A stretch of 64,000 nt of DNA from IMG/VR virus record IMGVR_UViG_3300029305_003072, one strand, 5' to 3'. Under the pieces are notes generated by a model. That model worked only from the letters and a program-made list of their open reading frames with translations, searched no databases and had not been told where the DNA came from. The translations under genes and the position numbers were made by a program. Positions 3,176 to 49,546 of the stretch are shown piece by piece; within the stretch, counting starts at the first letter, position 1, and each line of letters opens with the position of its first letter. The stretch is from a virus. Taxonomy: Duplodnaviria; Heunggongvirae; Uroviricota; Caudoviricetes.

Positions 3176-3246
3176 AAATATTCTCCCTTCTCTCAAAATT
3201 GATATGAAAAAACTAGGGTAGAAAAATCTACCCTAGTTGACATATA

Positions 3247-4503: not shown

Positions 4504-4744
4504 CATCATCGTCCTCTTCTTCTTCGTAGTCGTCCTCGCGGCAGAAACCGATCAGTCTCTTGGGAGTATCATCTTCGGCAGAGGCAGCCGCCTGACGCAT
4601 TTTGATATTGGTTAGGTTGATAATTTCGCTTTGTTTGGCTTTTTTCGCTTCCATCCAGGTAAGTACTAATCCGCTCAACCCATCAAGAAGTGGTATCGCA
4701 TAAGATACAAATAAAATACCAAGGATAAAATATAATAACTCCAT
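4493..4744 (-). CDS. Small membrane protein with acidic tail
   Basis: ORF with N-terminal hydrophobic helix and RBS. Confidence 0.6.
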   Translation of the reverse strand: MELLYFILGILFVSYAIPLLDGLSGLVLTWMEAKKAKQSEIINLTNIKMRQAAASAEDDTPKRLIGFCREDDYEEEEDDDDEV

Positions 4745-4787
4745 ATATATCTCCCCCTTATGTTATATGAGTATTAGGGGTTGATAA

Positions 4788-5216
4788 TTATTGATTTCTG
4801 GCCCGTAATCTTTGATAAAATTTATCTTTCTTGTCGATATATTCTTTGAGATATTTCTTTTCTTCTGCTAAATCCTAGCTAATTGTAGCTAATTCTTTTT
4901 CAATCGCCCCAATCTGACTTCGCAACATTTTCGCTTCGTAAGATTTTGGATTGAAATGTTTACTGGTTTGCATATTACTATATAAATGACGCAAAACATC
5001 GAGCTTAGGTTGAATCTCATGGTCGCGCTTGAAGCGCAATGCCTTGATATATGCGCGAGCCTCTGCAATGCAGCAACCAGTACGCTCGCTAATCATATCC
5101 ATATCATCGGGGTGACATTTAGCACCACCTTCAAATGCCTATCCATTACAAATCATCAGACATCTTGCATATCCCAACTTTTCATCAAAAGCAAATTCAA
5201 TATATTCGTGTTTCAT
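4788..5216 (-). CDS. Hypothetical protein with 2 in-frame TAGs
   Basis: ATG 5216 follows an AGGAGA RBS and promoter; TAGs at 5139 and 4875; TAA 4788. Confidence 0.7.
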
Positions 5217-5486
5217 ATAAATCTCCTTTATTATAAGATATAATTATTATACCCAAAAAAATAGGAAAAGTCAAATTAGAGCATTTTGGAGAAAAAATTC
5301 CTATGGGCGATCGGAATCCCAGAAACGACCGACAACGAGAACCAACGACAAATAGCCCCAGGAATTTCTTCCTGGGGCTGGGATTCTATATTTACTTAGT
5401 CGTTAGCGGACACGAGGGCGATGATAGCCATGCCCAATCCCGCAGATAGCGGGATAATCCATAATAAATGGAGGGCACTAATCATA

Positions 5487-7007: not shown

Positions 7008-7052
7008 TTACAGTTCTCCTTTTTCATTATTGTTTTTTTCAAGGTACATATT

Positions 7053-7322
7053 TTAGCAGTGCCATTCGCACTTAACTAACCAATTGATTTTACGACCATC
7101 ACGATATCTCACCGCATGATCGTCATACCAACCGCGATCCATATTTTCAATCGCAGCCAGCGCTTCAGCCCGGTTCTTATACACAGGCTCTTTGTGGAAT
7201 GTCAAGTTGCCGTGATAGCCACTTGACTCTTGTGGGTCATAAGCGAAACGATTCAAATCTTTTTGAATTGCGTGTTCGCTAGTTCGGCAGGGATAGTCAA
7301 TATACTAAATCTAATGACTCAT
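7053..7322 (-). CDS. Hypothetical protein with 2 in-frame TAGs near the N-terminus
   Basis: AAAGGAGG RBS, then ATG AGT CAT TAG ATT TAG TAT..., in frame with track ORF 7053-7256. Confidence 0.7.
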
Positions 7323-7336
7323 TTTACTTCCTCCTT

Positions 7337-8050
7337 TCACCCGTAGTATCCGCCATCTGGCGGATCTCTTTTATATTTTTCACATCGTCTATCTCTAAAT
7401 AGACGATCGTGGCAGGTAAATTCATAGAGGCAGTGATGGCAGGTTTTCTATTCCTACGCAGTGGGATCGACAGTGACCGGAGCCTCATCAAGGAACTCTA
7501 GGCACTTAATTGTTTCCTGCTTCATAATTTCAATGGCATCATCCAGAAGAACTGGCTTATTGCCGTTGGAATCAAGTCCCACATGGAACATAAAAGGAGT
7601 GTCGTCATAGAACATCTTTTGCTGATGTGTATGACCGAACAGGTTGATAAGATGCATCTTGAGGTAAGGTGCCTTATCAAGGTTGGAAGTCATCGTAGGA
7701 TGATGACTCAGATAGAACTGGTACTTCTTGTACTTGATAACCTCAGCCCAGCCAAGCAACTCAACATTGGGAAGAGTCGCATATAGCTTCCAACGAGCGT
7801 CGGTGTCGTGATTTCCTCGGATCAGCTTAATCGTACCGTTGAGGCGCTTCACGCACTCAATACCATAAGCATTATCTCCGAGCATTAAGTCGCCGCAGTG
7901 ATAGACGATATCGTCCGGTCCGACAATCTCATTCCAGTTCTTGATAATTGCTTCATCGTGTTCTCTCGAACTTGTAAAGCCTCTTGGACCCCACAGGAAC
8001 TCTCGGTCATGACCGAAATGGGTGTCCGATGTAAGGTAGATCTCTCCCAT
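7337..8050 (-). CDS. Calcineurin-like metallophosphoesterase with Cys-rich C-terminal extension via 2 TAGs
   Basis: SDTHFGH, GD, GNHD and GHTH motifs. Read-through gives Q-E-Q-KTCHHCLYEFTCHDR...CEKYKRDPPDGGYYG, TGA 7337. Confidence 0.85.
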
Positions 8051-8052
8051 AC

Positions 8053-8547
8053 TCACACCTCCTTTATAGTACCATTTTCATCAACCACAAGGATGTGATC
8101 GAAGTGTTCTTGGCTCTTATCGGGATGCCGGTAAGAGTTATACATATTGTCAATTGCGGAAGCCGGTACTCGGGATCGGCCGGACCGCAAATTGTTACGA
8201 GCGTGGCAAACTGCCAAAGGAACATCGAAGCACACGCAAGTCAAATCGCAGATATTGTCCTTACGGATTCTTCGCAACACCTTATCACGAGAACGCTTGT
8301 TCAAGTGAGTAGCGTCGATGTAGATGGTATGAATTTCGTCCTTTTCCAAAGTCTGATTGATGTAATTGATAAAGGTATCAAACACATCATCCTCGTGGGC
8401 GAAATAGTCATCTTCGTCGGTCAGAATTGCAAATCTCACATTGTCTCGCGAGATCCACTCTGCACCAGGCACCAATCGACTTCTGATCCAAGTCGACTTA
8501 CCGGCTCCCGGCACACCCGACAAAAGAAATACTTGCTTCTGCTTCAT
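8053..8547 (-). CDS. AAA_33/PNKP-like polynucleotide kinase
   Basis: GVPGAGKST P-loop, ISRD, IDATHL and RxxRxxRxVP motifs. Confidence 0.8.
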   Translation of the reverse strand: MKQKQVFLLSGVPGAGKSTWIRSRLVPGAEWISRDNVRFAILTDEDDYFAHEDDVFDTFINYINQTLEKDEIHTIYIDATHLNKRSRDKVLRRIRKDNICDLTCVCFDVPLAVCHARNNLRSGRSRVPASAIDNMYNSYRHPDKSQEHFDHILVVDENGTIKEV

Positions 8548-8764
8548 TCTTATACACCCCGTTTGCAAAATTGTTCCGAAACTCTTCAACCTCATCAAAT
8601 GTCTTACATTCGATGTGATTTACCTCTTGCTTACAGTGGACACAGTAGAGCTTCTTTCAGTGCATCCCCTCGTGCTTGAAGCCTTGATTACGCATCAAGG
8701 GGATGCCCTTATTACCGCAATTGATACAGTAAAAACTGTGTTCCGCATAGCCACGCCGGGCCAT
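8498..8764 (-). pseudogene. Zn-ribbon protein interrupted by an in-frame TGA
   Basis: MARRGYAEHSFYCINCG...EGMH(TGA 8657-8659)KKLYCVHCKQEVNHIEC...; the two CxxC halves are in one frame. Confidence 0.55.
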
Positions 8765-8997
8765 TAGGAATTACTCCTAACAGTCACGGTATGACCGAAC
8801 AGAATGTGGCACAGCCACTGCAGACCAAAAGCCTGCCAGTAGCCAATCACCGGAAGTCCGAACAGACTCACTGCAATCCAGTTCCACAACCACATCGTAA
8901 TGGCGGGACCCAGGAACAACAGGGCAATCAGACCGATGATGATGAGAATAACAGTACCGCAACCGATATCGCTATTGCTCCAAGCATTTCTACTCAT
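8764..8997 (-). CDS. Small membrane protein
   Basis: Hydrophobic ORF, first gene after a promoter. Confidence 0.65.
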   Translation of the reverse strand: MSRNAWSNSDIGCGTVILIIIGLIALLFLGPAITMWLWNWIAVSLFGLPVIGYWQAFGLQWLCHILFGHTVTVRSNS

Positions 8998-9035
8998 TTT
9001 TTATTCATTCCTTTCCTCTCACATCTTACATATAT

Positions 9036-9064
9036 ATTATATCATATTTTTTTATAAAAATCAA
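9036..9064 (-). promoter_or_regulatory. Representative of a repeated strong sigma70-type early promoter (TTGATT-17nt-TATAAT, extended -10)
   Basis: Minus strand TTGATTTTTATAAAAAAATATGATATAATATATA. Near-identical copies lie at about 10560, 14896, 18333, 22409, 23752, 25947, 27624, 30700, 33296, 37227, 41356, 42498, 43132, 47985, 49526, 51389, 55818, 57708, 58214 and 58679, with variants elsewhere. Confidence 0.9.
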
Positions 9065-24214: not shown

Positions 24215-25024
24215 TTAGCCTCCTACAAAAATTAGTTCATCAACATACTTACGATCTTCACCTTTGAGAATGGGCATCTCATTGTCAATACCCAATTCTT
24301 TAGTCCAGGCTCTGCCTCTTTTCCAGCGAGTGGGATAATCATTCCAATTGATACCACGCTTTTCATAGAGCATATCCTGGATCATATTACAACTCTTGCC
24401 CTGGAGTTCATTGTGAGAGAAGTTTGCCTGACCCACCATCTGAATAGAGTTGCGGGTAGCGTCTAACTGACGCCAGTAGATCAGATTGCAAACCTCTTCT
24501 TTTGGAATGTTGAAGCACCGAGCATCGAACATGGCAGTCCGCATTTTCTTACAATACAGCTTCCATCGTTCGCAATTTTCGGGAGAATCCCAGCTATCAG
24601 CACAGTAGCCCAGATGCTCATCAATCTTGCAGTGGTTATTTAGGAAGAAATGCACTTCTTCCATGAAGAATTTGTTGAAGGCCATAGTTGCCATAGAGGC
24701 AGCTACAGAGCAAATCTTTTGAAGTTCGTAATCGAACCAGGCATCAGTCTCAAGAGTCTGATAGTCGATTAAGATAAGGGTAATTTCATCAGATTGAGTA
24801 TATCCAAATACACAACCTTGAATATTTTTACAGAGATACTCCATAGTAGAAGCCATAGCATTACCTAACACTTCGTCAAAAGGCTTGGCGAAGCCTCGAG
24901 TGAAGGTGTGGAATGCCTTGCCGTCGATGCGAATAGCAACCGGAGTGCGTCTATATAGTTTGAATTTTGGCACTTGTTCGTAATACTGTTTCATACGAGT
25001 GCCGAGATCGTCATGCACGGGCAT
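24215..25024 (-). CDS. Thg1-like protein (tRNA-His guanylyltransferase / 3'-5' polymerase)
   Basis: RMKQYYE, IRIDGKAFHTFT, YTQSDEITL, FDAR and WRQLDATRNS motifs. Confidence 0.92.
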   Translation of the reverse strand: MPVHDDLGTRMKQYYEQVPKFKLYRRTPVAIRIDGKAFHTFTRGFAKPFDEVLGNAMASTMEYLCKNIQGCVFGYTQSDEITLILIDYQTLETDAWFDYELQKICSVAASMATMAFNKFFMEEVHFFLNNHCKIDEHLGYCADSWDSPENCERWKLYCKKMRTAMFDARCFNIPKEEVCNLIYWRQLDATRNSIQMVGQANFSHNELQGKSCNMIQDMLYEKRGINWNDYPTRWKRGRAWTKELGIDNEMPILKGEDRKYVDELIFVGG

Positions 25025-25739
25025 TGATTTTACCTCCTCTTTTCTTCTTACGCTCCGTGGCGTTGTCAATGGTTTCACGATGAATGGTAGTAATTGCAGA
25101 CATCAGACCATTCTTCAGTCTCTGGGTCAGGTTGATGGGTTCATAACCGATAACATCGGAGCAAACATTGAGATGACCCTTACGCTTCTTGCCTGCGTGG
25201 TCGTGGCCGTGGATATTGAAGAGCCAGGGAATGTCGACAGGCTCGTGGGACAGAATCAGCTTCTCGCCCACAATCAGCGCACCCTCATATACCTCATCAA
25301 ACAGCAGGTTATCAGCATATGCAACCCAGCGCTTGAAGGGTGCGTGCATCTCCCAGGACTCTTCAATACGAATGCGCCAATTGGGGAAGTTAGCTTCCAT
25401 AATTGCGCGAGCCTCGTCCATAGAAACTTTGTCCTGATCGAAAATCTTCTTCTCAACCACACGCTTGTAATTAGATGCGCCAGAGTCATGGTTACCCATG
25501 ATTAGGATCTTCCGACCGGCGCGCAACTGCCGCACGCACTCAATGTCGCCCACGTCACCCAGAATAATCAAGGTATCACGGCGACCAGCTTTTGCGTTGA
25601 TACGACGGATCTGCTCGTCGGCAGAGGGGCGATTTTTAATACCGCATTTCAGATCTTCATCATTGAAGTGAGGGTCGGAATAAATCCAAACCGTCTGTTC
25701 GCCCCAGTGCTGAAATGCATCATAAATACCAGGCAACAT
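25011..25739 (-). CDS. Metallophosphoesterase-like protein
   Basis: SDPHF, LGDVG, GNHD, SHEP and HGHDH motifs. Confidence 0.8.
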   Translation of the reverse strand: MLPGIYDAFQHWGEQTVWIYSDPHFNDEDLKCGIKNRPSADEQIRRINAKAGRRDTLIILGDVGDIECVRQLRAGRKILIMGNHDSGASNYKRVVEKKIFDQDKVSMDEARAIMEANFPNWRIRIEESWEMHAPFKRWVAYADNLLFDEVYEGALIVGEKLILSHEPVDIPWLFNIHGHDHAGKKRKGHLNVCSDVIGYEPINLTQRLKNGLMSAITTIHRETIDNATERKKKRGGKINARA

Positions 25740-40909: not shown

Positions 40910-41082
40910 TGGTGGATACTCGAGGACTCGAACCTCGCTTTTTTCATGTAGCCTTCTGGAGAGACCCCATCCACGCTACACCGGTTTCGCGCACGCAAGG
41001 CGACAGTGGGCATTTATCTCCACATCGCAGTTTTTACTTCCATACTACTTACATTACTTATCCTCCCCGTGAGGAGCTATCC
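40910..41082 (-). ncRNA. 173-nt tRNA-like RNA ending in T-arm + acceptor + CCA
   Basis: 3' CGAGG-TTCGAGT-CCTCG-AGTATCC-A-CCA; 5' GGATA(G)CT pairs with it; no normal D or anticodon arms. Confidence 0.5.
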
Positions 41083-41159
41083 TGGTCCGCCCTCAGGGAT
41101 TCGAACCCTGGACACCCTGATTAAGAGTCAGGTGCTCTGGCCAGCTGAGCTAAGGGCGG
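41083..41159 (-). tRNA. tRNA-Lys(CTT)
   Basis: Canonical cloverleaf. Confidence 0.95.
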
Positions 41160-41774
41160 ATATTGAAGGTGAGGGGCCTATCGGTCGGTCGTAACTGCTA
41201 CCACCAGACTTCCGCTACGAGGGTTACCCTCAAAATGGAGCTTATTCTCTTGTTCTTCGCCCAAGAAGCAATGGTAGATTGTCTCGGACTTCTCAAGAGG
41301 AGAGTTTTCACATTTCCTTTACCTTACATATATATTATATCATATTTTTTTATAAAAATCAAAAAAGATTTTTGGATTAGAAAAAACAATGATTAAGGCT
41401 AATTTTAGGGCTTAGGTCGTGTCAGATTTCCTGTTACACGATTGCCACTTAGTCCCTACTGTAAAACCTTAATCGTACCCTCAGTATGAGGCGGTCTTGA
41501 GGAATTTCTCCCAGTGCACAAGGCAAGACCGGTTTAGATGGGATGCGGGGCGTACTATTCTTCGCACATAGTACCCCCGCTGTGTCGCTTTCTTTATTAG
41601 GAACTTAACGACAGAATTCCTCTTTCTTGATTGGCCTAACCAAGAAATCCGTTGCTCTTTAAGATTCTCCAACGACTGAACTACGAGATGCTTGCGCACT
41701 ATGCTACTTAGGCCCTTTCACATAGATTGCCATTTACCGTCAGCGATGCCAATGAACTTTCTCACACTTGACCC

Positions 41775-41853
41775 TGGTGCGCCGCCTGGGATTCGAACCC
41801 AGGACACCCGCCTTAAAAGGGCGGTGCTCTGAAACCTGCTGAGCTAGCGGCGC
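41775..41853 (-). tRNA. tRNA-Lys(TTT)
   Basis: Canonical cloverleaf. Confidence 0.95.
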
Positions 41854-41900
41854 ATATAAAGAGAAAAATTGGGTGAGGGCACGAATGCCCTACACCCTGC

Positions 41901-41992
41901 AAGGCACTAATAACTTATGTAAAGGCTTTGCATATTTTAATTCATCTAAAATTAGTAAATTCTTTTATAAGGTTATTTGCTGAATGTGCCTT
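41901..41992 (-). ncRNA. CAGCAA-clamp RNA copy 1 (AT-rich cargo)
   Basis: AAGGCAC-ATTCAGCAAAT...GTGCCTT. Confidence 0.75.
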
Positions 41993-42162
41993 ATTAAATA
42001 TTATGTCCGATTTAGCACTCCCCGGCCCCATATGCGATGATAAGTGTCGAGAGCCTCAACACATATGGGGCAGATGGGGAGCTGCTAAGCCGGTAAAGAT
42101 TAGTTTGAGTTTAAACCATTCTTCTTTCTTAAGTAAATCTATTATTGTAGATGTTTCATCAT

Positions 42163-42225
42163 AGAGCTACCGAAGTAGCGACAAGCTGTACTTGAAAGTA
42201 CAATTTAGATTTGCTGTATGGCTCT
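42163..42225 (-). ncRNA. CAGCAA-clamp RNA copy 2 (variant)
   Basis: AGAGC-C-ATACAGCAAAT...GCTCT with two internal hairpins. Confidence 0.55.
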
Positions 42226-42303
42226 CAGTATGAAGTTCTCAATCAATAACTACAACTCCGATAGACCTACGATTCTAACGGCCTCGTTTGTATTGATTGA
42301 AAA

Positions 42304-42378
42304 TGGAGCGGGTAACGGGAATCGAACCCGTCTATCCTGCTTGGAAGGCAGGCGCACTAGCCGATGTACTACACCCGC
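42304..42378 (-). tRNA. tRNA-Gly(TCC)
   Basis: Canonical cloverleaf. Confidence 0.95.
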
Positions 42379-42504
42379 AGAAAAGGTGGACTAACGAGGG
42401 GGTGTCAGCCCACCCGAGAAGATAGGAACTTTAAAGAAAGGGGAGAAGATTTTTTCTTTATTTCCTGTAAGTATATTATACAAAAATTTTTTGAAAAAAT
42501 CAAC

Positions 42505-42807
42505 TTATTTTCTTAGAAACCAACGACAGTATTCTTGATACGCTTCGTCTCGGTTTGGGTACGGATGTCCGCATCCCTTACGCCATCTGTGCCAGCTTTT
42601 GAGAAGACTATCCCAGTATTGCTCAAATGATATGCCGACTGTTTCGTAGTCGCAGATATTCCAACTACAAGTTACCTTTTTATAGGTCTTGTTGTTTAAG
42701 GGAAGCTCCTCGATGGGAAGCCGCCGCACTCGACGATTTGCGTATTTTTTGAAGAACTTATCTTTGGTGTCTCCGCTGCGCGGAGTGTGCTTGTAAGAGC
42801 GACTCAT
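42505..42807 (-). CDS. Small basic hypothetical protein
   Basis: AAAGGAGG RBS; Arg/Lys-rich ORF. Confidence 0.7.
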   Translation of the reverse strand: MSRSYKHTPRSGDTKDKFFKKYANRRVRRLPIEELPLNNKTYKKVTCSWNICDYETVGISFEQYWDSLLKSWHRWRKGCGHPYPNRDEAYQEYCRWFLRK

Positions 42808-42881
42808 TTTTCTAACCTCCTTTTGGATAGTTAGAAGATAATCACCTTGTACATTGGAATCAGTCCTTTCATTTAAGGTTG

Positions 42882-42968
42882 TGGTCCCGGTGACCGGACT
42901 CGAACCGGTACGGTGTCACCACCGAGGGATTTTAAGTCCCTTGTGTCTGCCAATTCCACCACACCGGG
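42882..42968 (-). tRNA. tRNA-Leu(TAA)
   Basis: Class II cloverleaf. Confidence 0.95.
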
Positions 42969-43000
42969 ATGTTTTCACTTCGTGAAAACGAAGTTTTCAC

Positions 43001-43091
43001 AAGGCTCGTCATTCACATCTGTAATATCTTGGAAGGATATATAATTTTCTATTTCTTTTAGAAAGTGTGTATGATTTGCTGTAAGAGCCTT
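43001..43091 (-). ncRNA. CAGCAA-clamp RNA copy 3 carrying a Gly(TCC) anticodon stem-loop
   Basis: AAGGCTC-TTACAGCAAAT...ATATC-CTTCCAA-GATAT...GAGCCTT, directly after a promoter. Confidence 0.8.
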
Positions 43092-43148
43092 TTTTATCTT
43101 ACATATATATTATATCAAAAATTTTTATAAAAATCAATTTTCGATACT

Positions 43149-43245
43149 TGGCTGGGGTGGAGGGATTCGAACCCCCACATCACGGGTCAGAGCCGTGCTT
43201 CCTGGAGTTTTAGAGACTCTTTTCTTACCATTAGAATACACCCCA
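43149..43245 (-). tRNA. 97-nt Gln-type tRNA with two anticodon arms (CUA and CUG)
   Basis: TGGGGTG..D-arm..GAGT-CTCTAAA-ACTC..CACGG-CTCTGAC-CCGTG..T-arm..CACCCCA-G-CCA. Confidence 0.8.
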
Positions 43246-43320
43246 TGGCGGGGGCGGTCAGAATCGAACTGACATCTGCGATTTTAGAGACCGCGGTCCT
43301 AACCTTTGAACGACACCCCA
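43246..43320 (-). tRNA. Amber suppressor tRNA(CUA), Gln-type
   Basis: GCGGT-CT-CTA-AA-ATCGC; U1, G73 and TGGGGTG acceptor resemble the Gln tRNAs in this window. Confidence 0.93.
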
Positions 43321-43323
43321 ATA

Positions 43324-43731
43324 TCATTCTTCAGCCTGGAATTCAGATAAGGGTAAGCTAAATACTTCAAATTCAGTATATTTATTCCCAACTGTGATTG
43401 TATTAGTAGCAGAAATTGCTTCACAAGGAATTAAATAAGTTTTATCATTCCCTGTTACAATAAATACATAATCACAAGAAGTGTTATCAAATGGTCGAAT
43501 TTTAGAGCCTTTACTGGTACCCCCACAGTTTTTTAACATTACTTCATAGGAAATACCATTTCTACTATATCGACTGGTTTTAACTTGAACTCTCTACAAG
43601 CCACCATTAAAATCAGCAATTAAATCATATTTTTGAGTATCATTAAGCGGAATCGCAACTGTGATACCATGACTGGTAAAATATTCAACGGCTTTACCAA
43701 AACCTAAATTTCCCTAAATTGACTAATACAT
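43324..43731 (-). CDS. PD-(D/E)XK free-standing endonuclease with 3 in-frame TAGs
   Basis: MY-Q-SI-Q-GNLGFGKAVEYF..IPLNDTQKYDLIADFNGGL-Q-RVQVKTS. TAGs at 43723, 43714 and 43594. Paralogous to 46242 and 53993. Confidence 0.85.
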
Positions 43732-43784
43732 ACTTATTCTCCTTTACAATAACTTGTTTTTTCGATAACTCGAACGGAAAACAC

Positions 43785-43979
43785 AAGACACGCATAAAAA
43801 ATGTTTAACGGCGCTCTACCAGCTGAGCTACTCCCCTATATTCAGGGAACCGAAGTTCCCCTAGTAGTTCACCTACGCCACCTTGCCAGGTGAACTGGCA
43901 GGGGAGGAAGGGACTCGAACCCACGACATCCGGCTTGGAAGGCTTAATTTTTTATAGTAGAATTTGCTGAAAGTGTCTT
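43785..43979 (-). ncRNA. CAGCAA-clamp RNA copy 4: circularly permuted tRNA (anticodon TCC)
   Basis: 3' half (43943-43896, ending GCCA) precedes 5' half (43837-43809), enclosed by AAGACAC/GTGTCTT. Confidence 0.85.
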
Positions 43980-44009
43980 TTTTCTTATATTATTATTATA
44001 GCAAAAATT

Positions 44010-44204
44010 TTATGAATTGTCAAGGAATCGCTTCTCGTCTCGGGCGATTTTTCTTTTAGTCCGTTGTTGCTCATAAATATAGGTTTTTAATCTTTTACAT
44101 CCAGAACAACCATTTCGATTTGGACAATCCCAACAACCATCTGTGTCATACCAATAGTACCAAGGTGGCTGAGGACGCGGCTTACGGCGTTTAGCACGAT
44201 TCAT
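44010..44204 (-). CDS. Small Cys-rich basic protein
   Basis: CWDCPNRNGCSGCK. Confidence 0.55.
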   Translation of the reverse strand: MNRAKRRKPRPQPPWYYWYDTDGCWDCPNRNGCSGCKRLKTYIYEQQRTKRKIARDEKRFLDNS

Positions 44205-44517
44205 ATTTACAACGATTAGGACGCCAAATGCGTCCAACATATTCCATTTCTTCTTCATCCATAGCCAAGAGTCTACGCAATTCAGAAGCCTTGTAATTCA
44301 AATTGCGATTGTAATTACCGGCTTTATGTCTGCGGTGACCCTTGTTACGAGTCTTTGTAGAGCAACAAGGACAAGAACAATGGATTTTATTTTTAGAAAA
44401 CTGATGAAGGTTATCGTAATACTCCCACTCGGGATTCCAACGGTAAATCTCCCTTGCAAGGCGTCTTTTACGAAGTGCCTTTCTAATAGATACATCACGA
44501 TTATATGCACCAATCAT
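44191..44517 (-). CDS. Small basic protein with CSCPCC motif
   Basis: RBS AAAGGATG; Arg/Lys-rich. Confidence 0.65.
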   Translation of the reverse strand: MIGAYNRDVSIRKALRKRRLAREIYRWNPEWEYYDNLHQFSKNKIHCSCPCCSTKTRNKGHRRHKAGNYNRNLNYKASELRRLLAMDEEEMEYVGRIWRPNRCKYESC

Positions 44518-44545
44518 AACACATCATCCTTTCTATTTAATTTTA

Positions 44546-44625
44546 GGCTCACTCGGCTCTGGCGGGTAGCACAGCGCAACTCTCCCGTTCCGGAACGAAG
44601 TGTTTTTCTCTTAAACTACGAGTGA
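44546..44625 (-). ncRNA. tRNA-like element with perfect acceptor and D-arm but degenerate T-arm
   Basis: TCACTCG/CGAGTGA-G-CC; D-arm GTTT/AAAC. Confidence 0.45.
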
Positions 44626-44713
44626 TGGCGGAGGCTCTGGGATTCGAACCCAGGGACCCTCGCGGGCCGGCAGTTTTCAAGACTGCTGCCTTAAACCACT
44701 CGGCCAAACCTCC
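44626..44713 (-). tRNA. tRNA-Ser(TGA)
   Basis: Class II cloverleaf. Confidence 0.95.
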
Positions 44714-44757
44714 ATATCGGGAGCATATGCTCCCATTGAATCGTAAGAGCTTAGCTC

Positions 44758-45120
44758 TTACATAGTTGCCAGAATATTAGCAACGTCAGCCTGGGCTTCA
44801 GCCAGTTCTGCAGTGGCATCAGTATGGTATGCGGTCATATCGGTCACATACTTCTGAGCCATAGCCAGCTGGTCCTGTGCCTTCTTCAACAGGCGGGCCG
44901 CACGAGCCTTACGCTTCTTGGCAATCTTTTCTGCGCAACGAGCAACAGCCAGCTTAACACCCTTATCTTCATCATAGGTATCGTTCAGATGGCAAATAGC
45001 CTTACCCTTAACGGTCTCACCAGCATAAGTGCTTCGTGCCAGAATTTCAGTAGTGTGGTAGTCAGGATGTTGATGAACCACAATCTGATACTTCTCAATA
45101 GGATATCTCATTTCATTCAC
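44758..45120 (-). CDS. Hypothetical protein
   Basis: ORF with RBS. Confidence 0.7.
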   Translation of the reverse strand: MNEMRYPIEKYQIVVHQHPDYHTTEILARSTYAGETVKGKAICHLNDTYDEDKGVKLAVARCAEKIAKKRKARAARLLKKAQDQLAMAQKYVTDMTAYHTDATAELAEAQADVANILATM

Positions 45121-45154
45121 CTTTTACTCTTTAATATATTTTTCCTTTTGGAAA

Positions 45155-45230
45155 TGGAGCCGGTAGACGGACTCGAACCCCCGACCTGCTCATTACAAGT
45201 GAGCTACTCTACCAACTGAGCTATACCGGC
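45155..45230 (-). tRNA. tRNA-Thr(TGT)
   Basis: Canonical cloverleaf. Confidence 0.95.
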
Positions 45231-45236
45231 ATACTC

Positions 45237-45303
45237 AAGACTCTTTTTTCTGGTCTGACAATTTAAAAGATTGTTCCAAAATTAAATTTGCTGTATGAGT
45301 CTT
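45237..45303 (-). ncRNA. CAGCAA-clamp RNA copy 5 carrying a Lys(TTT) anticodon stem-loop
   Basis: AAGACTC-ATACAGCAAAT...ACAAT-CTTTTAA-ATTGT...GAGTCTT, after a promoter. Confidence 0.82.
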
Positions 45304-46146
45304 ATTTTTTTTATCTTTATCTTATGTATATATTATACAAAAATTTTTTTTCAAAGTCAAAGAGTAGAAAAAATCCCGTATTAGAGTCAAGTCAAACCTA
45401 CTTTGTACGCGCTGAAACATCTCTTGGTCTCGCCGCACACTACCAACCTCTCCCGTTCCACCTACCCATATAATCTGTAAGCTAAATGGGGCAGTACTAG
45501 GGCCTCTTACCATCGGTTATCATATTTTCTAATACGGAATTTTCCACTTAAAATCAATCTTTTCGCTTTTCATCGCATTACCTCAGTATTGGGCTATTTC
45601 ACCGAGCGCTACTTCAATCAATAATAAGATTTTTAATACATTTAATCATATAACAGTTGCGAGTCTGCATTCAATTATCGTTACCCAATCTCACCTATCC
45701 ATTTCGCGATAGGGGCGCCTGGACTTAATCTTCGTATCCTATAACTCGACTTAGTTTATACTCCAGGGACCTAATAGCAGAGGGAAGAAGTATTTACATT
45801 ACAGACCGTAGACCGTAAAGAAAAGTTCTTCATATCAATAATACAACTACTACCATTTGACTTTTAGGTCAAACACGAAGGGAAAAGTCAACAAAAAACC
45901 TACCATATTAACGCATATGGAGCGTCAAACTAAATATCTGATACGTGTCAGCACGGGTCGGGATATATCGTTTCACCACAGTCACCAGGGGGAGTAACCT
46001 TATTTAGTCCAAATACCACCAGAAACCTTCAGCCATAGGAGCAGTTTCCACGTTTTACCCTACGAGGACTTTGGGAATGAAAGGATGCCCCGCCTATATT
46101 CGCAGCGAATGGTATTCATTTTAATTTTTGAATGCTTCGCATTCAA

Positions 46147-46233
46147 TGGTGGGCCAGGTAGGACTCGAACCTACAACCGCATTAAGCACCTGATTTACAG
46201 TCAGGGGTGATACCAGTTACACTGTACTGACCC
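46147..46233 (-). tRNA. tRNA-Tyr(GTA)
   Basis: CCTGA-CTGTAAA-TCAGG; long variable arm. Confidence 0.9.
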
Positions 46234-46241
46234 ATATGGTA

Positions 46242-46649
46242 TTAAATAGACACCATATATTGATAAGTTTGAAAACCTTGTCCATTGGCAGATTTTTGAG
46301 TGCGGAGAGTAATTTGTTTACTCACTCCATAATCTCGCAAATCTTGAACTGGAATGACATACATATGCATTTCCCCATCTAAACAGAATAAATAATCAAC
46401 AGGGTGGTTTAATATAGTATCATACACACTACCTTTTGTACCACCAGTGCTTTTAATTGAAACACTATTATCAGCACTACCAGTTGCTTTACATTGAACT
46501 GTTTTAAATACGCCATCTTTTTCAATGACTAAATCATACCATTGAGTATCGTTTAGAGGGACATTAATTGTATATCCATTGGCTCCAAAATAGGCGATTG
46601 CCATCGCCATGCCTGCGCGACCTTTATCACGATTTGTTTCAAATAACAT
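46242..46649 (-). CDS. PD-(D/E)XK free-standing endonuclease
   Basis: KGRAG..IAYF..PLNDTQWYDLVIE...VQCKAT. Confidence 0.8.
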   Translation of the reverse strand: MLFETNRDKGRAGMAMAIAYFGANGYTINVPLNDTQWYDLVIEKDGVFKTVQCKATGSADNSVSIKSTGGTKGSVYDTILNHPVDYLFCLDGEMHMYVIPVQDLRDYGVSKQITLRTQKSANGQGFQTYQYMVSI

Positions 46650-46984
46650 AGTAAAATCTCCTTTTCTTTTAGCTTCTACTATATTTCAAAACTAAATCAT
46701 ATAAATTAATCAACGCCGGCCACGGTGTCTGCCGAAATATAAATGCCTTGTCAAATATACATCCAACCTCAATTTTGACAGCCTACCGACGCAGATAATT
46801 ACTCGAGTTTAACCTACGATGCTTGGATGTTTCCATGCCTACCTTGAAAACGGGTCCGGTGCAGGCACCGGTCCTTGGAAGCTAGATAGGTTATGCCAGG
46901 ACTTTAGCGATAGCTTTGTTCAATCAAAAAAAGTTATTTATACGCAGTAGCGGCTAACTCTACTACAACAATAACCTTGGGCCG

Positions 46985-47123
46985 TGGTGAGCCGCCTTGG
47001 ACTTGAACCAAGATGCCAACTAAGGCGCCGGATTTTAAGTCCGATTTTACTTGCTGTTAGCGTTTTAGACCAAGACACTATTTCATTCCGGTCCGGTGCG
47101 TCTACCAATTCCGCCAACGGCTC
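46985..47123 (-). tRNA. tRNA-Leu(TAA) interrupted by an approximately 52-nt CAGCAA-type insert (copy 6)
   Basis: Insert 47042-47093 in the 5' anticodon strand contains GTGTCTT-loop-AAAACGC-TAACAGCAA. Confidence 0.85.
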
Positions 47124-47194
47124 ATATTTAGAATCTTGAAAAGTTTGCTGACCTTCGCCATACACTCTGTTTAACCTTCACCTATATTCAACCA

Positions 47195-47945
47195 ATGGGG
47201 AGACACGGTCTGAGCTTCGGGGAGCGACCCCTAACTTCCGGCCCCAGTCTTTCGACCAAGTCCCATGCAGGAATGATTGCCTGCAACTTTCACCCGCCAT
47301 TCAGAAATATTTGATAATAACCAACTAAATCATCAAGCATTAATGTTCTTTGCGATTGGGCTACTCGTACCACAACCTCGTCTTATAGGCCGGTCACCCG
47401 GTCATCAACGCAAACTTCCTTATTGGTCTACCATGGTTTGGTACAGTCACCAGCTAAACCCTAACATGGCTTATTCCCCACAGGGGCGTCTATTGCGGAA
47501 GCGACGAGACAGTGTTTTTAGATGCGGTTATGATTGCACACCCCTCCATCCAGGACCTCAGTTCTGAGGCGGAACTCACGCTTCACAACGCAAGCCCTCT
47601 ACCTATTGCCGGCTATCGTCGACAAAATTATTTCGGACTCCTGGCGCCCGCAGGCAGGATTGGGTTCTCGGCACGATGGGATTCGCTCTTCACCGAGATG
47701 CAAACTTTTCAAGGTTCAAACTGATATTAGTCGAAATCGCAACCACCAGGCTTATTCAGCGGAGGGTTATCAGTTATCGGTTGCTTAAAAAGGTTAAGAT
47801 TTTAGGAGAAACAAGTGTCAAAGAAACAGTCCTTCAACAGACCCTCTTACCGGCCGCCTTATCTTTCTCACTTATCGGCTTAAGCCACGAACCCGGCGCA
47901 CTTGGAATCATCATATATCCTCGAAAGGGAAGTGTACGCTTCTCT
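47195..47945 (-). ncRNA. GOLLD-like large ncRNA (about 750 nt)
   Basis: Non-coding block with its own promoter inside a tRNA array. Segments GGCAATAGGT, GGGTGTGCAA, TGGTGACT, GTAGAC..AAGTTTGC..GACCGGGTGAC.GGCC, GTAGCCCA, TCTGAATG..GGTGAAAGTTG and AAGCTCAGAC match GOLLD as I recall it; not searched. Confidence 0.7.
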
Positions 47946-48172
47946 TAACCTTACATATATATTATATCATATTTTTTTTGAAAAATCAAATTTTTTCTTT
48001 AAAAGGCGGTTTTTGGTCAGGTTGACCGCAAACCTGGGATAGTGTGTTTATACACCAAAGGCATTGTACCAAAGCCGCGGACCACTCTTTAAACGATGGA
48101 CACTTCTAATCCTACGTCCTATCCTTTTTCAGAGGCTTATATACGGTTTCCGTCCGTAATGCTCCTACTTTA

Positions 48173-48248
48173 TGGCTGGGGATAAAGGATTCGAACCTTT
48201 AACCATCAGAGTCAGAGTCTGCCGCGCTACCAATTGCGCCAATCCCCA
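48173..48248 (-). tRNA. tRNA-Gln(CTG)
   Basis: Canonical; U1-A72, G73. Confidence 0.95.
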
Positions 48249-48317
48249 ATATTGCGGTTTTTATTGTCGATAACCGCAAACGACTTCAATTACTTTTCCC
48301 AATCAGCGCCTAGCGCC

Positions 48318-48393
48318 TGGCTGGGGATAGTGGATTCGAACCACTACACACACGGGGTCAAAGCCCGCGGAACTGCCTTTATTCTAATCCCCA
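48318..48393 (-). tRNA. tRNA-Gln(TTG)
   Basis: Canonical; U1-A72, G73. Confidence 0.93.
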
Positions 48394-48400
48394 ATAAAGA

Positions 48401-48793
48401 TTATACAAGATAATCTTCTAATGTCAATCCCATCTTTTCAAAATGATGAAATTCTCGATGGCAATTAGCACATAAACAAACACATTTATCAATTTCTTTT
48501 TGTAGAGTTTCTTCTGAGCCTTTTTTCATTTTTCCAATTGTAAATGATTTTTCATCTGGGTCCATATGATGAAAATCTAAAACATAGGAACGAGTTTCTC
48601 CACATTTGGCACAAACTGTTCGTTGTGCATCAACAAATGCTCGTTTTTCCCAATATCGTTCAGTTTCTCGCTTATTTGCACAAGTTTTACAATAACCACG
48701 ATATTTTTGATTACCTTGTCTATCAAACCCATTTTTATGATATTCGGTGATGGGTTTTTCAACACCACATTTAGAGCAAATTTTAGTTTCCAT
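48401..48793 (-). CDS. HNH homing endonuclease
   Basis: CSKC..CKTC zinc finger; CAKCG..LDFHH...KCVCLCANCHREFH. Confidence 0.88.
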   Translation of the reverse strand: METKICSKCGVEKPITEYHKNGFDRQGNQKYRGYCKTCANKRETERYWEKRAFVDAQRTVCAKCGETRSYVLDFHHMDPDEKSFTIGKMKKGSEETLQKEIDKCVCLCANCHREFHHFEKMGLTLEDYLV

Positions 48794-48879
48794 ATACTCA
48801 ACTCCCTTCACTATATGTGAAAAGCACTGATTATAAATTAACTATTTTTGACTCTTTTCCGCCTAACGAACGGATTTAC

Positions 48880-48987
48880 AAGGCACTTAATTTGTTGCTT
48901 TACCCACTAAGCTATTCTCCAAAAATGGCTGGAAAAATCGGACTCGAACCGACGGTACACAAAAAGTGTGATTGCTGTGTGTGCCTT
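48880..48987 (-). ncRNA. CAGCAA-clamp RNA copy 7: permuted tRNA-like body with reduced anticodon arm
   Basis: AAGGCAC-ACACAGCAAT-ACAC(TTTTT)GTGT-T arm-TTTTCCA-GCCA-TTTT-TGGAGAA-D arm...GTGCCTT. Confidence 0.75.
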
Positions 48988-49163
48988 TATTTATAACTGC
49001 TGATACCACTCATGCAGTTTAGATAGTCTTTCATGAACCTCTTCGGGTTCTAACTGCTTAAAAATTTCAAATTGAGAAGGAACTTGGCATCCAAGAGCAG
49101 CCGCATTTAAGATGTAAGCATATGCCGCAAGAGCATTGCCAATATCCTTTTTTAGTTCTTCAC

Positions 49164-49469
49164 TTACCATACATCCTCCGAAAACAACTGATATGCATTT
49201 AACATATCGGGGTCTGCATTCATCTTCTCCAAGAGGTCGGAATCTGGTAAAATTTGTTTACTACGATAAGCCATCTGTGCGGCATCGTACCGGTCGACAA
49301 ACTGGTCGTCCTCAGTGAGGAAACCCTGGACCGCAGTAGCTTTTTCATATTCAATGCGGAGATTGTACATCATTTCAAGGACATTGCAGTGTCGCTTGCC
49401 GCACATAATTTGAAAATATTCACAGCCTTTTGGCTTAAACTTGATAGCTGCTGCTACTAACTTCGGCAT
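49164..49469 (-). CDS. Hypothetical protein
   Basis: GKRH...QGFLT..FVDR pattern; after promoter. Confidence 0.7.
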   Translation of the reverse strand: MPKLVAAAIKFKPKGCEYFQIMCGKRHCNVLEMMYNLRIEYEKATAVQGFLTEDDQFVDRYDAAQMAYRSKQILPDSDLLEKMNADPDMLNAYQLFSEDVW

Positions 49470-49546
49470 CTTTATCAATTCCTTTCTTTATCTTATGTAT
49501 ATATTATATCATAATTTTTTAAGAAAATCAATAAAGATTTAATTGC

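What the first reader, a model, noticed from the sequence alone, without database searches (positions are those of the whole stretch)
46985..47123. tRNA-Leu(UAA) with the clamp motif inside-out as a 52-nt intron
Seen: a complete tRNA-Leu with an insert in the 5' anticodon strand, compatible with 29/30 (the boundary is ambiguous because of a CGGAC repeat). The insert reads GTGTCTT-loop-AAAACGC-TAACAGCAA, i.e. the same helix and motif with the backbone closed where other copies are open. It is too short for a group I or II intron. An uninterrupted Leu(UAA) exists at 42882. Inference: this links the permuted genes to a linear intron form and suggests a new protein-spliced bacterial-type tRNA intron.
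Basis: partly seen in the sequence, partly recalled or inferred. Interest (0 to 1): 0.82.

Follow-up and report, generated by a model that had tools for sequence, protein, structure and literature searches.

The report
Phage tRNA-Leu carrying a Y-RNA-type handle
A phage leucine-tRNA gene really is interrupted by a conserved 52-base module, and this design recurs in many gut and rumen phages. The module is the same "handle" that this phage puts on a dozen small RNAs next to a Ro60-like protein gene, so it is more likely a permanent protein-binding arm than a new kind of intron, although splicing is not excluded.

Summary
At 46985-47123 (minus strand) lies a well-formed tRNA-Leu(UAA) gene with encoded CCA. 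A 52-nt insert sits in the 5' strand of its anticodon stem, and a CGGAC repeat makes the insertion point ambiguous.

The insert is a closed hairpin followed by AA-CAGCAA. The same helix-plus-CAGCAA "handle" closes 12 other small RNAs in this tRNA array.

The design is not a one-off:
- I found 15 further tRNA-Leu(UAA) genes with this insert, in at least four diverged lineages. In the 12-gene alignment, 15 stem pairs show compensatory changes.
- Tandem sets of handle-interrupted Lys, Thr and Pro tRNAs occur in other phage contigs.
- Permuted Leu(UAA) versions have homologous junction flanks.

In this lineage (7 loci) the gene always starts 4-9 nt after a ROOL RNA.

Nothing shows splicing. There is no bulge-helix-bulge motif, no ribozyme match, no splicing endonuclease or RtcB in the window, and no spliced RNA among the joints listed. 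The phage encodes a protein whose confident model matches Ro60 over its full length. My best reading (about 0.5) is an unspliced, Y-RNA-like tRNA chimera. A new protein-spliced intron stays at about 0.2.

The scan had already noted this handle family on other genomes.

The parts
46985..47123 (-). tRNA-Leu(UAA)-bodied gene with a 52-nt insert and encoded CCA (G1 = 47123, A73 = 46988, CCA = 46987-46985)
   Evidence: Rfam tRNA 33.3 bits. Cloverleaf pairs are 99.6% kept, with 15 compensatory pairs, across 12 homologous genes.
47040..47091 (-). 52-nt insert, drawn in the register after A31. Equivalent registers shift it by up to 5 nt because CGGAC is repeated (47095-47091 and 47043-47039).
   Evidence: Sequence; alignments.
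47060..47078 (-). Closed handle hairpin: GUGUCUU (47078-47072), loop GGUCU (47071-47067), AAAACGC (47066-47060). One C x A mismatch and one G.U pair.
   Evidence: In L040/L043 the helix is GUGUAUU/AAUACGC, which compensates the mismatch. In L148 it is GUGUCUU/AAGCCAC.
47051..47059 (-). UAA + CAGCAA, the single-stranded motif of the handle
   Evidence: CAGCAA is present in all 13 window copies. In group A it is as conserved as the tRNA body (0.92 against 0.90-0.93).
47028..47043 (-). Second copy of the stem strand (CGGA, 47043-47040), anticodon loop CUUAAAA (47039-47033, anticodon UAA at 47037-47035), and 3' stem strand UCCGG (47032-47028)
   Evidence: This copy is 100% paired with the 3' strand in 12 genes and covaries with it.
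47092..47096 (-). First copy of the anticodon-stem 5' strand (CCGGA, tRNA positions 27-31)
   Evidence: 100% paired with the 3' strand in 12 genes; two pairs covary.
47130..47721 (-). ROOL RNA, ending 6 nt before the tRNA
   Evidence: RF03087, 312.6 bits. The same ROOL-then-interrupted-Leu order occurs in L032, L062, L040, L043 and L045 and in L148.
47961..47989 (-). Promoter-like site TTGATT-17-TATAAT with extended TG; a member of a 12-copy promoter repeat in the array
   Evidence: repeat family D1.
46944..46966 (-). Conserved 7-bp hairpin downstream of the CCA, followed 11 nt later by U7 (46932-46926). Possibly the end of the transcription unit.
   Evidence: Read from the sequence. Compensatory changes in L032 and L040 (alignment A2). 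The terminator scan did not call it.
35556..37115 (-). Ro60-like protein (DUF2828 + DUF7788; HEAT-repeat ring plus vWA domain with a DxSxS MIDAS motif), the proposed partner of the handle
   Evidence: Pfam. AF2 model pLDDT 91.7. The top 13 PDB fold matches are all Ro60/TROVE, full length, E down to 1e-7, TM up to 0.59.
42882..42968 (-). Uninterrupted tRNA-Leu(UAA) of the same array
   Evidence: ARAGORN; Rfam 55.3 bits.
43785..43979 (-). Sibling: open-handle RNA with a permuted tRNA-Gly(UCC) body, broken at 29/30
   Evidence: weak YrlA match at 43808-43932.
57993..58122 (-). Sibling: open-handle RNA with a permuted tRNA-like body
   Evidence: YrlA RF02553 48.2 bits, E 3e-8, below the gathering score of 69.

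Best explanation
The locus encodes a stable chimeric RNA: a complete tRNA-Leu(UAA) body with a Y-RNA-type protein-binding handle looped out of the 5' strand of its anticodon stem. The handle is a short helix plus single-stranded (A)CAGCAA. The RNA is a topological isomer of the phage's other handle RNAs. In those, the handle helix is open (it holds the RNA's two ends) and the tRNA-like cargo is closed or permuted. Here the acceptor end is open and the handle is closed by a loop.

Proposed working (all steps inferred):
1. The RNA is co-transcribed with ROOL from the promoter at about 47961-47989.
2. RNase P cuts at G47123. This makes the tRNA 5' end and, at the same time, the ROOL 3' end.
3. 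The body folds as a tRNA, with the 52 nt as a flexible bulge.
4. The handle binds the phage's Ro60-like ring protein (35556-37115).
5. The tRNA body and its intact Leu(UAA) anticodon arm give that particle something to hold. Candidates are tRNA-binding enzymes, host anticodon nucleases (as a decoy or sensor), or the phage's RNA-repair enzymes.

In this reading the insert is not removed.
For: Shown:
- The handle is a real, repeated module: 13 copies in the window with helix covariation. A strict pattern finds 175 copies in 1.41 Mb around DUF2828 genes of related phages, all on the gene's strand, and 0 in shuffles or in 277 kb of unrelated loci.
- The handle is attached to cargo that cannot yield a tRNA, such as bare hairpins and bodies lacking an anticodon arm. 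It therefore has its own function.
- Sibling copies match YrlA (Y RNA-like) at 48, 26 and 26 bits.
- The neighbouring DUF2828 protein folds like Ro60. The top 13 PDB matches are all Ro60/TROVE, including a phage Ro60 that binds phage Y-like RNAs (PMC12135203).
- Y RNAs with tRNA-like domains next to Ro60 genes are known in bacteria and phages (PMC4201824).
- The three anticodon-stem-attached cargo anticodons in the window (Leu UAA, Gly UCC, Pro GGG) all duplicate uninterrupted tRNA genes.
- The discriminator base is A or G in close relatives in three lineages: window A and L023 G; L046 A and L036 G; L063 A and L034/L059 G. At least 11 of the 12 uninterrupted tRNA-Leu genes checked have A73; one ARAGORN boundary was unclear.
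- Within the lineage, helix strand a and CAGCAA are as conserved as the tRNA body (0.92-0.93), while the linkers are free to vary (0.52-0.65).
- ROOL ends 4-9 nt before the gene in 7 loci. In relatives ROOL is followed by other tRNAs.
Against: - No binding of the handle to the Ro60-like protein has been shown.
- The co-occurrence data come from related, syntenic phages and are not independent.
- The target itself does not match YrlA, and the handle motif (CAGCAA) differs from the CGAA-type Ro site of known Y RNAs.
- The tRNA body is kept perfect: intact anticodon loop, A73 in most copies, encoded CCA, and a 5' leader like those of the true tRNAs. A real tRNA precursor would look exactly like this.
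- Both copies of the stem strand keep complementarity to the 3' strand in four lineages. A static handle model does not explain this.
- In two sub-lineages the handle helix has a mismatch, and in L148 the motif reads CAGCGA.
Confidence: 0.5

Rival explanations
1. A new kind of protein-dependent tRNA intron. The handle, or the duplicated stem strand, marks two cuts. A phage or host endonuclease makes them and a phage RNA ligase joins the exons into a working tRNA-Leu(UAA). Permuted siblings would mature through a circular or two-piece intermediate. The excised piece might itself be a small handle RNA.
For: - The tRNA body is perfect and under structural selection.
- Removing the insert gives an 84-nt tRNA whose D arm and anticodon arm match uninterrupted phage tRNA-Leu(UAA) genes.
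- In every interrupted tRNA examined (Leu, Lys, Thr, Pro, Gly), joining the halves gives a perfect 5-bp stem and 7-nt loop.
- L046/L036 carry four interrupted tRNAs in a row, and ARAGORN calls no standard tRNA on either locus.
- The fetched stretches of L045, L039 and L065 hold Leu(UAG) and Leu(CAA) but no uninterrupted Leu(UAA).
- Both copies of NGGA covary with the 3' strand. One structure-specific nuclease could therefore see both splice sites in the same helix context.
- The window encodes a PNK-like kinase, phosphoesterases, an RNA-ligase-like OB-fold protein, a Thg1-like enzyme and two small PD-(D/E)XK nucleases.
- A tRNA-Met in the array carries an ORF-bearing insert at 37/38 with no ribozyme match.
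Against: - No BHB motif and no ribozyme family.
- No EndA, RtcB or Tpt1 in the window.
- No spliced joint among the listed RNA-contig joints (the list was cut short).
- The handle also sits on cargo that cannot become a tRNA.
- Non-Leu interrupted tRNAs lack the duplicated strand, so a duplication-based mechanism is not general.
- The window and L148 both hold an uninterrupted Leu(UAA).
- The discriminator is G in four copies.
- The loci that appear to lack an uninterrupted Leu(UAA) are only partial contigs.
Confidence: 0.2
2. Mainly a processing element for ROOL. The tRNA-shaped RNA serves as the RNase P signal that cuts the ROOL 3' end, as mascRNA does for MALAT1. The insert is a tolerated, slowly decaying relic of a handle with no role of its own.
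For: - ROOL ends 4-9 nt before the gene in 7 loci.
- In relatives ROOL is followed closely by some tRNA, either uninterrupted or interrupted.
- ROOL bins are far deeper in the RNA runs than in the DNA run.
- Helix strand b is variable (0.63), two sub-lineages carry mismatches, and L148 reads CAGCGA.
Against: - RNase P needs only the acceptor and T arms, yet the whole anticodon arm, both stem-strand copies, helix strand a and CAGCAA are as conserved as the body.
- The mismatch is compensated in L040/L043.
- Interrupted Leu(UAA) genes in three other lineages have no ROOL upstream.
Confidence: 0.15
3. A dead gene: a recombination scar between two tandem permuted copies, or a small mobile insertion with a 5-bp target duplication, in a redundant tRNA-Leu gene.
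For: - The insert is flanked by a direct repeat (CGGAC).
- An uninterrupted Leu(UAA) exists.
- The handle helix is imperfect here.
Against: - The same interrupted gene is kept in at least four diverged lineages.
- Compensatory changes occur in all stems: 15 pairs, 99.6% of cells paired.
- The interrupted gene is syntenic in relatives at about 80% identity.
Confidence: 0.05

Closest known systems
YrlA-type bacterial and phage Y RNAs with Ro60/Rsr (Rfam RF02553; Chen et al. 2014, PMC4201824; Thermus phage phiLo Ro60 with Yrl1/2, PMC12135203)
   Same: Small RNAs encoded near a Ro60-fold gene. A protein-binding stem with a single-stranded motif on its 5' strand is joined to a tRNA-like module. Sibling copies in the window give weak YrlA matches. 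The neighbouring protein folds like Ro60.
   Different: The handle motif is helix + (A)CAGCAA, not the CGAA-type bulged helix. The protein is DUF2828/DUF7788, not Pfam TROVE. In the target the tRNA is complete, with an open CCA end and its own anticodon arm, and the handle is a closed side arm. The target itself does not match RF02553.
Archaeal and eukaryal protein-spliced tRNA introns, split tRNAs and permuted tRNAs (bulge-helix-bulge motif, EndA/Sen endonuclease, RtcB or Trl1 ligase)
   Same: One junction motif is used in three gene topologies: interrupted, permuted, and flanking. The inserts are short and lie in or near the anticodon arm, including stem positions. Joining the halves restores a perfect stem.
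   Different: No BHB can be drawn. No EndA or RtcB is seen in the window. The motif also occurs on non-tRNA cargo. No spliced product has been seen.
Group I intron of tRNA-Leu(UAA) in cyanobacteria and plastids
   Same: The same tRNA species is interrupted in its anticodon arm in a bacterial-type genome.
   Different: 52 nt against more than 200 nt. No Rfam group I match. The site is in the stem (27/28-32/33), not 34/35 in the loop.
mascRNA/MALAT1-type tRNA-like 3'-end processing elements, and the known closeness of ROOL and GOLLD to tRNAs (PMC5737381; bioRxiv 10.1101/2024.12.08.627333)
   Same: A tRNA-shaped RNA lies directly 3' of a long structured noncoding RNA, placed so that RNase P cleavage would make the upstream RNA's 3' end.
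   Different: Here the body is a full cloverleaf with anticodon arm and CCA plus a protein-binding module. Cleavage has not been shown.
Class I RNAs of dictyostelid amoebae (PMC7919456)
   Same: A short stem joins the 5' and 3' ends. The RNA starts with AAG. A conserved unpaired 11-nt motif follows the 5' stem strand, and its invariant positions (U3, C6, C9, A10, A11) fit ..U..CAGCAA as in the window's handles.
   Different: They are eukaryotic RNAs of about 60 nt with no tRNA cargo. Their function and partner are unsettled. The resemblance rests on motif letters only, and the lead came from an earlier scan note.

Membership tests
tRNA (Rfam RF00005), class II tRNA-Leu | Cloverleaf with conserved U8, A14, G18G19, a T loop of the UUCRANY type, and a 7-bp acceptor stem | tested here: met
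   33.3 bits against a gathering score of 29 despite the insert. Pairs are kept 99.6% in 12 homologs.
tRNA (Rfam RF00005), class II tRNA-Leu | Continuous 5-bp anticodon stem with a 7-nt loop | tested here: not met
   A 52-nt insert interrupts the 5' strand. ARAGORN does not call the gene.
tRNA (Rfam RF00005), class II tRNA-Leu | A73 discriminator, the LeuRS identity element in bacteria | tested here: inconclusive
   A73 in the window and 9 other homologs; G73 in L023, L036, L034 and L059. At least 11 of 12 uninterrupted tRNA-Leu genes checked have A73.
BHB-type protein-spliced tRNA intron | Bulge-helix-bulge (3-nt bulge, 4-bp helix, 3-nt bulge) at the exon-intron boundaries | tested here: not met
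   An exhaustive search for h(>=2)-B3-H4-B3-h'(>=2) around the insert gave 0 hits in 12 genes.
BHB-type protein-spliced tRNA intron | Splicing endonuclease (EndA/Sen) and RtcB- or Trl1-type ligase encoded or available | tested here: inconclusive
   None among 50 window ORFs scanned with Pfam. An RNA-ligase-like OB-fold protein, a PNK-like kinase and PD-(D/E)XK nucleases are present. The rest of the genome and the host are not held.
BHB-type protein-spliced tRNA intron | Spliced mature RNA exists | tested here: inconclusive
   No 52-nt skip among the 15 listed joints in three metatranscriptome runs. 338 further joints were not shown, and only assembled contigs were available.
Group I intron (RF00028) | P1-P9 catalytic core of about 200 nt or more | tested here: not met
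   The insert is 52 nt. No Rfam match at E up to 10 on 46900-47200.
YrlA / Y RNA (RF02553) | Match to the covariance model at the gathering score | tested here: not met
   No match on the target. Siblings score 48.2, 26.3 and 25.7 bits against a gathering score of 69.
YrlA / Y RNA (RF02553) | Encoded next to a Ro60/TROVE-fold protein gene | tested here: met
   A DUF2828/DUF7788 gene lies 10 kb away on the same strand. Its model has pLDDT 91.7, and its top 13 PDB matches are Ro60/TROVE.
YrlA / Y RNA (RF02553) | The RNA is bound by the Ro60 protein | not testable with these tools
   Needs EMSA or RIP. The only available evidence is co-occurrence in related phages.
CAGCAA-handle RNA family (undescribed; defined here and in earlier scan notes) | A helix of about 7 bp whose 5'-type strand is followed, after 2-4 nt, by CAGCAA; the helix covaries between copies | tested here: met
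   Target: AAAACGC-UAA-CAGCAA paired with GUGUCUU (6 of 7 pairs). Relatives differ by compensatory changes.

The most novel reading that the evidence does not exclude
Phages of gut Firmicutes have a protein-dependent tRNA maturation system unrelated to BHB/EndA. A Ro60-bound "handle" (helix + CAGCAA) marks tRNA precursors that are interrupted, permuted or flanked. A phage nuclease and ligase then excise the handle and join the halves. In the Leu genes the duplicated, covarying stem strand lets one structure-specific nuclease see both splice sites in turn. The excised handle would persist as a Y-like RNA. This would be the first non-ribozyme tRNA splicing and permuted-tRNA maturation in the bacterial world.
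Probability: 0.15. Interest if true: 0.92.

Novelty: new variant of a known kind. Interest (0 to 1): 0.68.

Why it matters
Bacterial and phage tRNA genes are thought to be interrupted only by self-splicing group I introns. Here a 45-60-nt non-ribozyme module sits in the anticodon stem of otherwise perfect tRNA genes. It occurs in many phage lineages, sometimes in four genes in a row.

Both possible readings are new. Either phages build whole tRNAs into Ro60-type particles, which would be a new architecture for Y-like RNAs and would tie Ro60, tRNA mimicry, RNA repair, a vault-like protein and the ROOL nanocage RNA into one phage locus. Or a new splicing chemistry exists in bacteria.

The conserved ROOL-tRNA unit also gives a concrete, testable idea for how ROOL 3' ends are made and what might be tethered to the cage.

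Tried and rejected
- RNA evidence: three metatranscriptome runs and one DNA run were laid on 40000-59500. Only assembled contigs were available and the tables were cut short. No skip at 47040-47091 was listed.
- MFE fold of the 139-nt RNA: z = -1.1, no cloverleaf recovered. Uninformative, as is common for tRNAs.
- BHB search: none found.
- Rfam at E up to 10 on the locus: only tRNA and the ROOL 3' end.
- Whole-genome searches: no genome is held for the window, and the metagenome loci are not searchable as records.
- A viral contigs pattern for unpermuted Leu with the GGTAGACRC D arm gave only coding false positives.
- Search for an uninterrupted ortholog (spliced-junction pattern) in viral contigs: 9 hits, all unrelated ordinary tRNA-Leu(UAA) genes with other acceptor stems.
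- Many metagenome hits to the Leu pattern look like tmRNA 3' ends (a tag ending ..ANAA-stop just before GGACUUAAAAUCC) and were discarded.
- My first loose handle detector had a high background, 3.2 per 10 kb in shuffles, and was replaced by a strict one.
- The single-sequence AF2 model of the DUF2828 protein was useless (pLDDT 39). Sequence and profile searches of the PDB gave nothing useful. The alignment-based model resolved the fold.
- I considered that the handle resembles the rrn boxA antitermination sequence or a k-turn. I dropped both: no conserved G.A pairs, and the motif also occurs inside tRNAs.
- The match of UCUUGGU in the insert to the T-stem strand is not conserved in L040, so I treat it as chance.

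Full report
**What is there.** The window carries a phage-type array of 41 ARAGORN-called tRNA genes on the minus strand (40022-59048), including two CUA suppressors. A ROOL RNA lies at 47130-47721 (312.6 bits). Six bases after ROOL ends, Rfam finds a tRNA at 46988-47123 (33.3 bits; gathering score 29) with 58 nt unaligned in the anticodon region. ARAGORN does not call it.

On the minus strand the gene has:
- a 7-bp acceptor stem (GAGCCGU/GCGGCUC);
- a Leu-type D arm and a long variable arm;
- a T arm, A73 and encoded CCA;
- the same AUAU leader context as the other tRNAs of the array.

It is 136 nt without CCA. The uninterrupted tRNA-Leu(UAA) at 42882-42968 is 84 nt, so the insert is 52 nt. 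CGGAC stands at both edges, so the break can be drawn anywhere from 27/28 to 32/33. The insert holds GUGUCUU-GGUCU-AAAACGC (6 of 7 pairs) followed by UAA-CAGCAA.

**The module is a family.** Twelve other minus-strand elements in the array have 5'-[A/U]AGRCNN, 3 nt, CAGCAA, a variable cargo, and then the complementary strand at the 3' end. The last two helix positions covary between copies. Cargo types are:
- permuted tRNA bodies broken at 29/30;
- a tRNA body opened at the variable loop;
- near-whole tRNAs held at the acceptor end;
- tRNA-like bodies without an anticodon arm;
- bare hairpins.

Three copies give weak matches to the Y-RNA-like family YrlA: 48.2, 26.3 and 25.7 bits against a gathering score of 69. 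A strict handle pattern finds 11 copies in the window, all on the minus strand. It finds 175 copies in 1.41 Mb around homologs of the window's DUF2828 gene in IMG/VR phages, all on the gene's strand and in 62 of 80 loci. It finds none in shuffles and none in 277 kb of unrelated loci. These phages are relatives of one another, so this shows that the family is real and syntenic. It is not independent evidence of co-occurrence.

**The interrupted tRNA-Leu is conserved, not an accident.** Pattern scans found 15 further tRNA-Leu(UAA) genes with the insert:
- Near-identical copies: L032, L062, L023.
- The same lineage at about 80% identity: L040, L043, L045, L148.
- Three more lineages with entirely different acceptor stems: L036/L046; L039/L065/L154; L034/L059/L063.

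In a 12-gene alignment the cloverleaf is 99.6% paired, and 15 pairs changed on both sides. No shuffle and no slid register comes near this. Within the window's lineage the tRNA body (0.90-0.93 pairwise identity), helix strand a (0.93) and AA-CAGCAA (0.92) are conserved. The two linkers (0.65 and 0.52), the hairpin loop (0.70) and helix strand b (0.63) vary. The window's C x A mismatch is compensated in L040/L043 (GUGUAUU/AAUACGC). L148 has a different mismatch, and its motif reads CAGCGA.

**Link to the permuted genes.** Other tRNA-array phages (L007/L051, L014/L022) carry a permuted Leu(UAA) handle RNA. Its order is: handle 5' strand, CAGCAA, linker, GGA-CUUAAAA-UCCCG, T arm, acceptor 3' strand, short loop, acceptor 5' strand, D arm, CG, linker, handle 3' strand. 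The sequences on both sides of the handle are recognisably homologous to the two ends of the window's insert. The target is therefore the same RNA with the backbone opened at the acceptor end instead of at the handle.

**Other interrupted tRNAs.**
- L046 and L036 have, after one promoter, four handle-interrupted tRNAs in a row: Lys UUU (break 28/29), Thr GGU (29/30), Pro GGG (with a CUGCAA variant) and Leu UAA. Open-handle small RNAs follow.
- L034 has a Gly GCC with the module at 31/32.
- L113-L115 and L121/L122 have a Pro UGG broken at 28/29.
- L077 has an interrupted tRNA right after ROOL.
- Lachnospiraceae and Bacilli MAG contigs carry more.

In every case, joining the halves gives a perfect 5-bp stem and a 7-nt loop.

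**A feature I cannot explain.** Only the Leu genes keep two copies of the stem strand. The first is a 5' copy N27-NGGA. The second is a copy NGGA directly before the anticodon loop. In four lineages position 28 of both copies stays complementary to position 42 (5' copy, 3' copy, position 42): C,C,G; U,C,G; U,U,A; A,A,U. Both alternative helices are 100% paired. The insert can therefore slide along the stem, or the RNA can switch between two folds. Both pairings appear to be under selection.

**ROOL context.** ROOL ends 4-9 nt before the interrupted Leu gene in the window, L032, L062, L040, L043 and L045, and in L148. A promoter-like site lies upstream of ROOL. A conserved hairpin with compensatory changes follows the CCA. 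In related phages ROOL is followed closely by other tRNAs, either uninterrupted or interrupted. The ROOL bin is very deep in the RNA runs and shallow in the DNA run. That ROOL lies near tRNAs is known (PMC5737381; bioRxiv 10.1101/2024.12.08.627333). A fixed ROOL-tRNA unit placed so that RNase P would cut the ROOL 3' end is my inference.

**Protein context.** The window encodes:
- a PNK-like kinase next to a phosphoesterase;
- an RNA-ligase-like OB-fold protein;
- a Thg1-like enzyme;
- a major-vault-protein homolog;
- Sir2, NADAR and Macro proteins, and NAD-salvage genes;
- two small PD-(D/E)XK nucleases of the I-Ssp6803I family;
- a DUF2828/DUF7788 protein.

With an alignment of 106 diverse homologs the last of these gives a confident model (pLDDT 91.7). 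Its 13 best PDB matches are all Ro60/TROVE proteins over the full length, including Deinococcus Rsr and the Thermus phage phiLo Ro60. The phiLo protein binds phage Y-like RNAs (PMC12135203). Tested YrlA RNAs carry tRNA-type modifications, and M. smegmatis YrlA is a substrate of tRNA enzymes (PMC4201824). I found no EndA, RtcB or Tpt1.

**Is it spliced?** Nothing I could test shows it:
- No BHB motif can be drawn in any of 12 genes.
- No ribozyme or intron family matches.
- No spliced joint is listed in the RNA contigs, but that test is weak.

Four points speak against a pure intron reading:
- The same handle sits on cargo that can never become a tRNA.
- The three anticodon-stem-attached cargo anticodons in the window (Leu UAA, Gly UCC, Pro GGG) duplicate uninterrupted genes.
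- The window and L148 both have an uninterrupted Leu(UAA).
- The discriminator switches between A and G in close relatives in three lineages, whereas at least 11 of 12 uninterrupted tRNA-Leu genes checked have A73.

Four points speak for it:
- The tRNA body is kept perfect.
- The duplicated stem strand covaries.
- L046/L036 have tandem interrupted tRNAs, with no standard tRNA called on those loci.
- The phage has an RNA-repair toolkit.

**Verdict.** My odds are:
- about 0.5 for an unspliced, Y-RNA-like tRNA chimera that binds the Ro60-like protein and also serves as the ROOL 3'-end processing signal;
- about 0.2 for a new protein-dependent intron;
- about 0.15 for a mere ROOL processing element with a relic insert;
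- about 0.05 for a dead gene.

The remainder is for explanations I have not thought of.

Earlier notes of this scan had already described the CAGCAA-handle family on other genomes and read it as Ro60-linked. Here I tested the fold of the protein, the family statistics and the YrlA matches myself. I checked the resemblance to dictyostelid Class I RNAs only against the paper's description (PMC7919456).

Noticed in passing
window:53943-54473 (-): A tRNA-Met(CAU) gene is interrupted after position 37 by about 453 nt, of which 414 nt is a PD-(D/E)XK (PDDEXK_5, I-Ssp6803I family) ORF at 53993-54406. The anticodon and A37 pair over about 10 bp with the 3' end of the insert. No group I intron match in Rfam at E up to 1.
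   Followed up: partly
window:30744-33224 and 35556-37115 (-): A major-vault-protein homolog (MVP shoulder and Vault_3 domains) lies close to the Ro60-fold/vWA protein in a phage that also makes many small panhandle RNAs. This recalls the eukaryotic vault (MVP + TROVE protein TEP1 + vault RNA). L148 keeps both genes, with other genes inserted between them.
   Followed up: partly
L046:6850-7500 and L036:1-620: One promoter is followed by four consecutive handle-interrupted tRNAs (Lys UUU, Thr GGU, Pro GGG with a CUGCAA variant, Leu UAA) and then open-handle small RNAs. ARAGORN calls no standard tRNA on these loci.
   Followed up: partly
window:47092-47096 and 47040-47043; alignment A1 columns 28-32, 88-91, 99-103: The Leu genes keep two copies of the anticodon-stem 5' strand, and both covary with the 3' strand in four lineages. 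The other interrupted tRNAs have no such duplication. This suggests a sliding bulge or a two-state fold. Unexplained.
   Followed up: partly
window:41391-41474 (-): A partial match to OLE RNA (RF01071): 53.5 bits against a gathering score of 50, model positions 439-592 only, between two tRNA-Lys genes.
   Followed up: no
window:43149-43320 (-): Two adjacent CUA (amber suppressor) tRNAs, one of them 97 nt long. The phage may read TAG as a sense codon in part of its genes. L014 and L148 also carry a CUA tRNA.
   Followed up: no
window:7454-20854 (-): A dense island of NAD and ADP-ribose genes and RNA-repair genes: PNK-like kinase + phosphoesterase, NMNAT-like protein, NADAR, NAD synthase, Macro (weak), NAMPT-like protein, Sir2, PRPP-synthetase-like protein, nicotinamidase-like protein, HD domain protein, RNA-ligase-like OB-fold protein. 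A Thg1-like enzyme lies at 24215-25078.
   Followed up: no
window:46944-46966 (-): A 7-bp hairpin just after the interrupted tRNA, with compensatory changes in L032 and L040, followed 11 nt later by U7. The terminator scan did not call it.
   Followed up: partly
L151:~6790-6920, L155:~1630-1760, L154:~7060-7200: Contigs binned with Lachnospiraceae and Bacilli MAGs carry handle-interrupted tRNAs. The L151/L155 version has an extra hairpin in the first linker. This hints at Firmicutes hosts or prophages.
   Followed up: no
window handle copies, e.g. 43074-43091, 59057-59074 (-): The handle (starts with AAG, short terminal stem, then ..U..CAGCAA unpaired) fits the published description of dictyostelid Class I RNAs: stem plus an 11-nt motif with invariant U3, C6, C9, A10, A11, and a start at AAG (PMC7919456). 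This lead came from an earlier scan note.
   Followed up: partly
window:47161-47811: The bin holding ROOL has a contig depth of 1744-9057 in three metatranscriptome runs against 33 in a DNA run. Many variant ROOL contigs from related phages are present.
   Followed up: no
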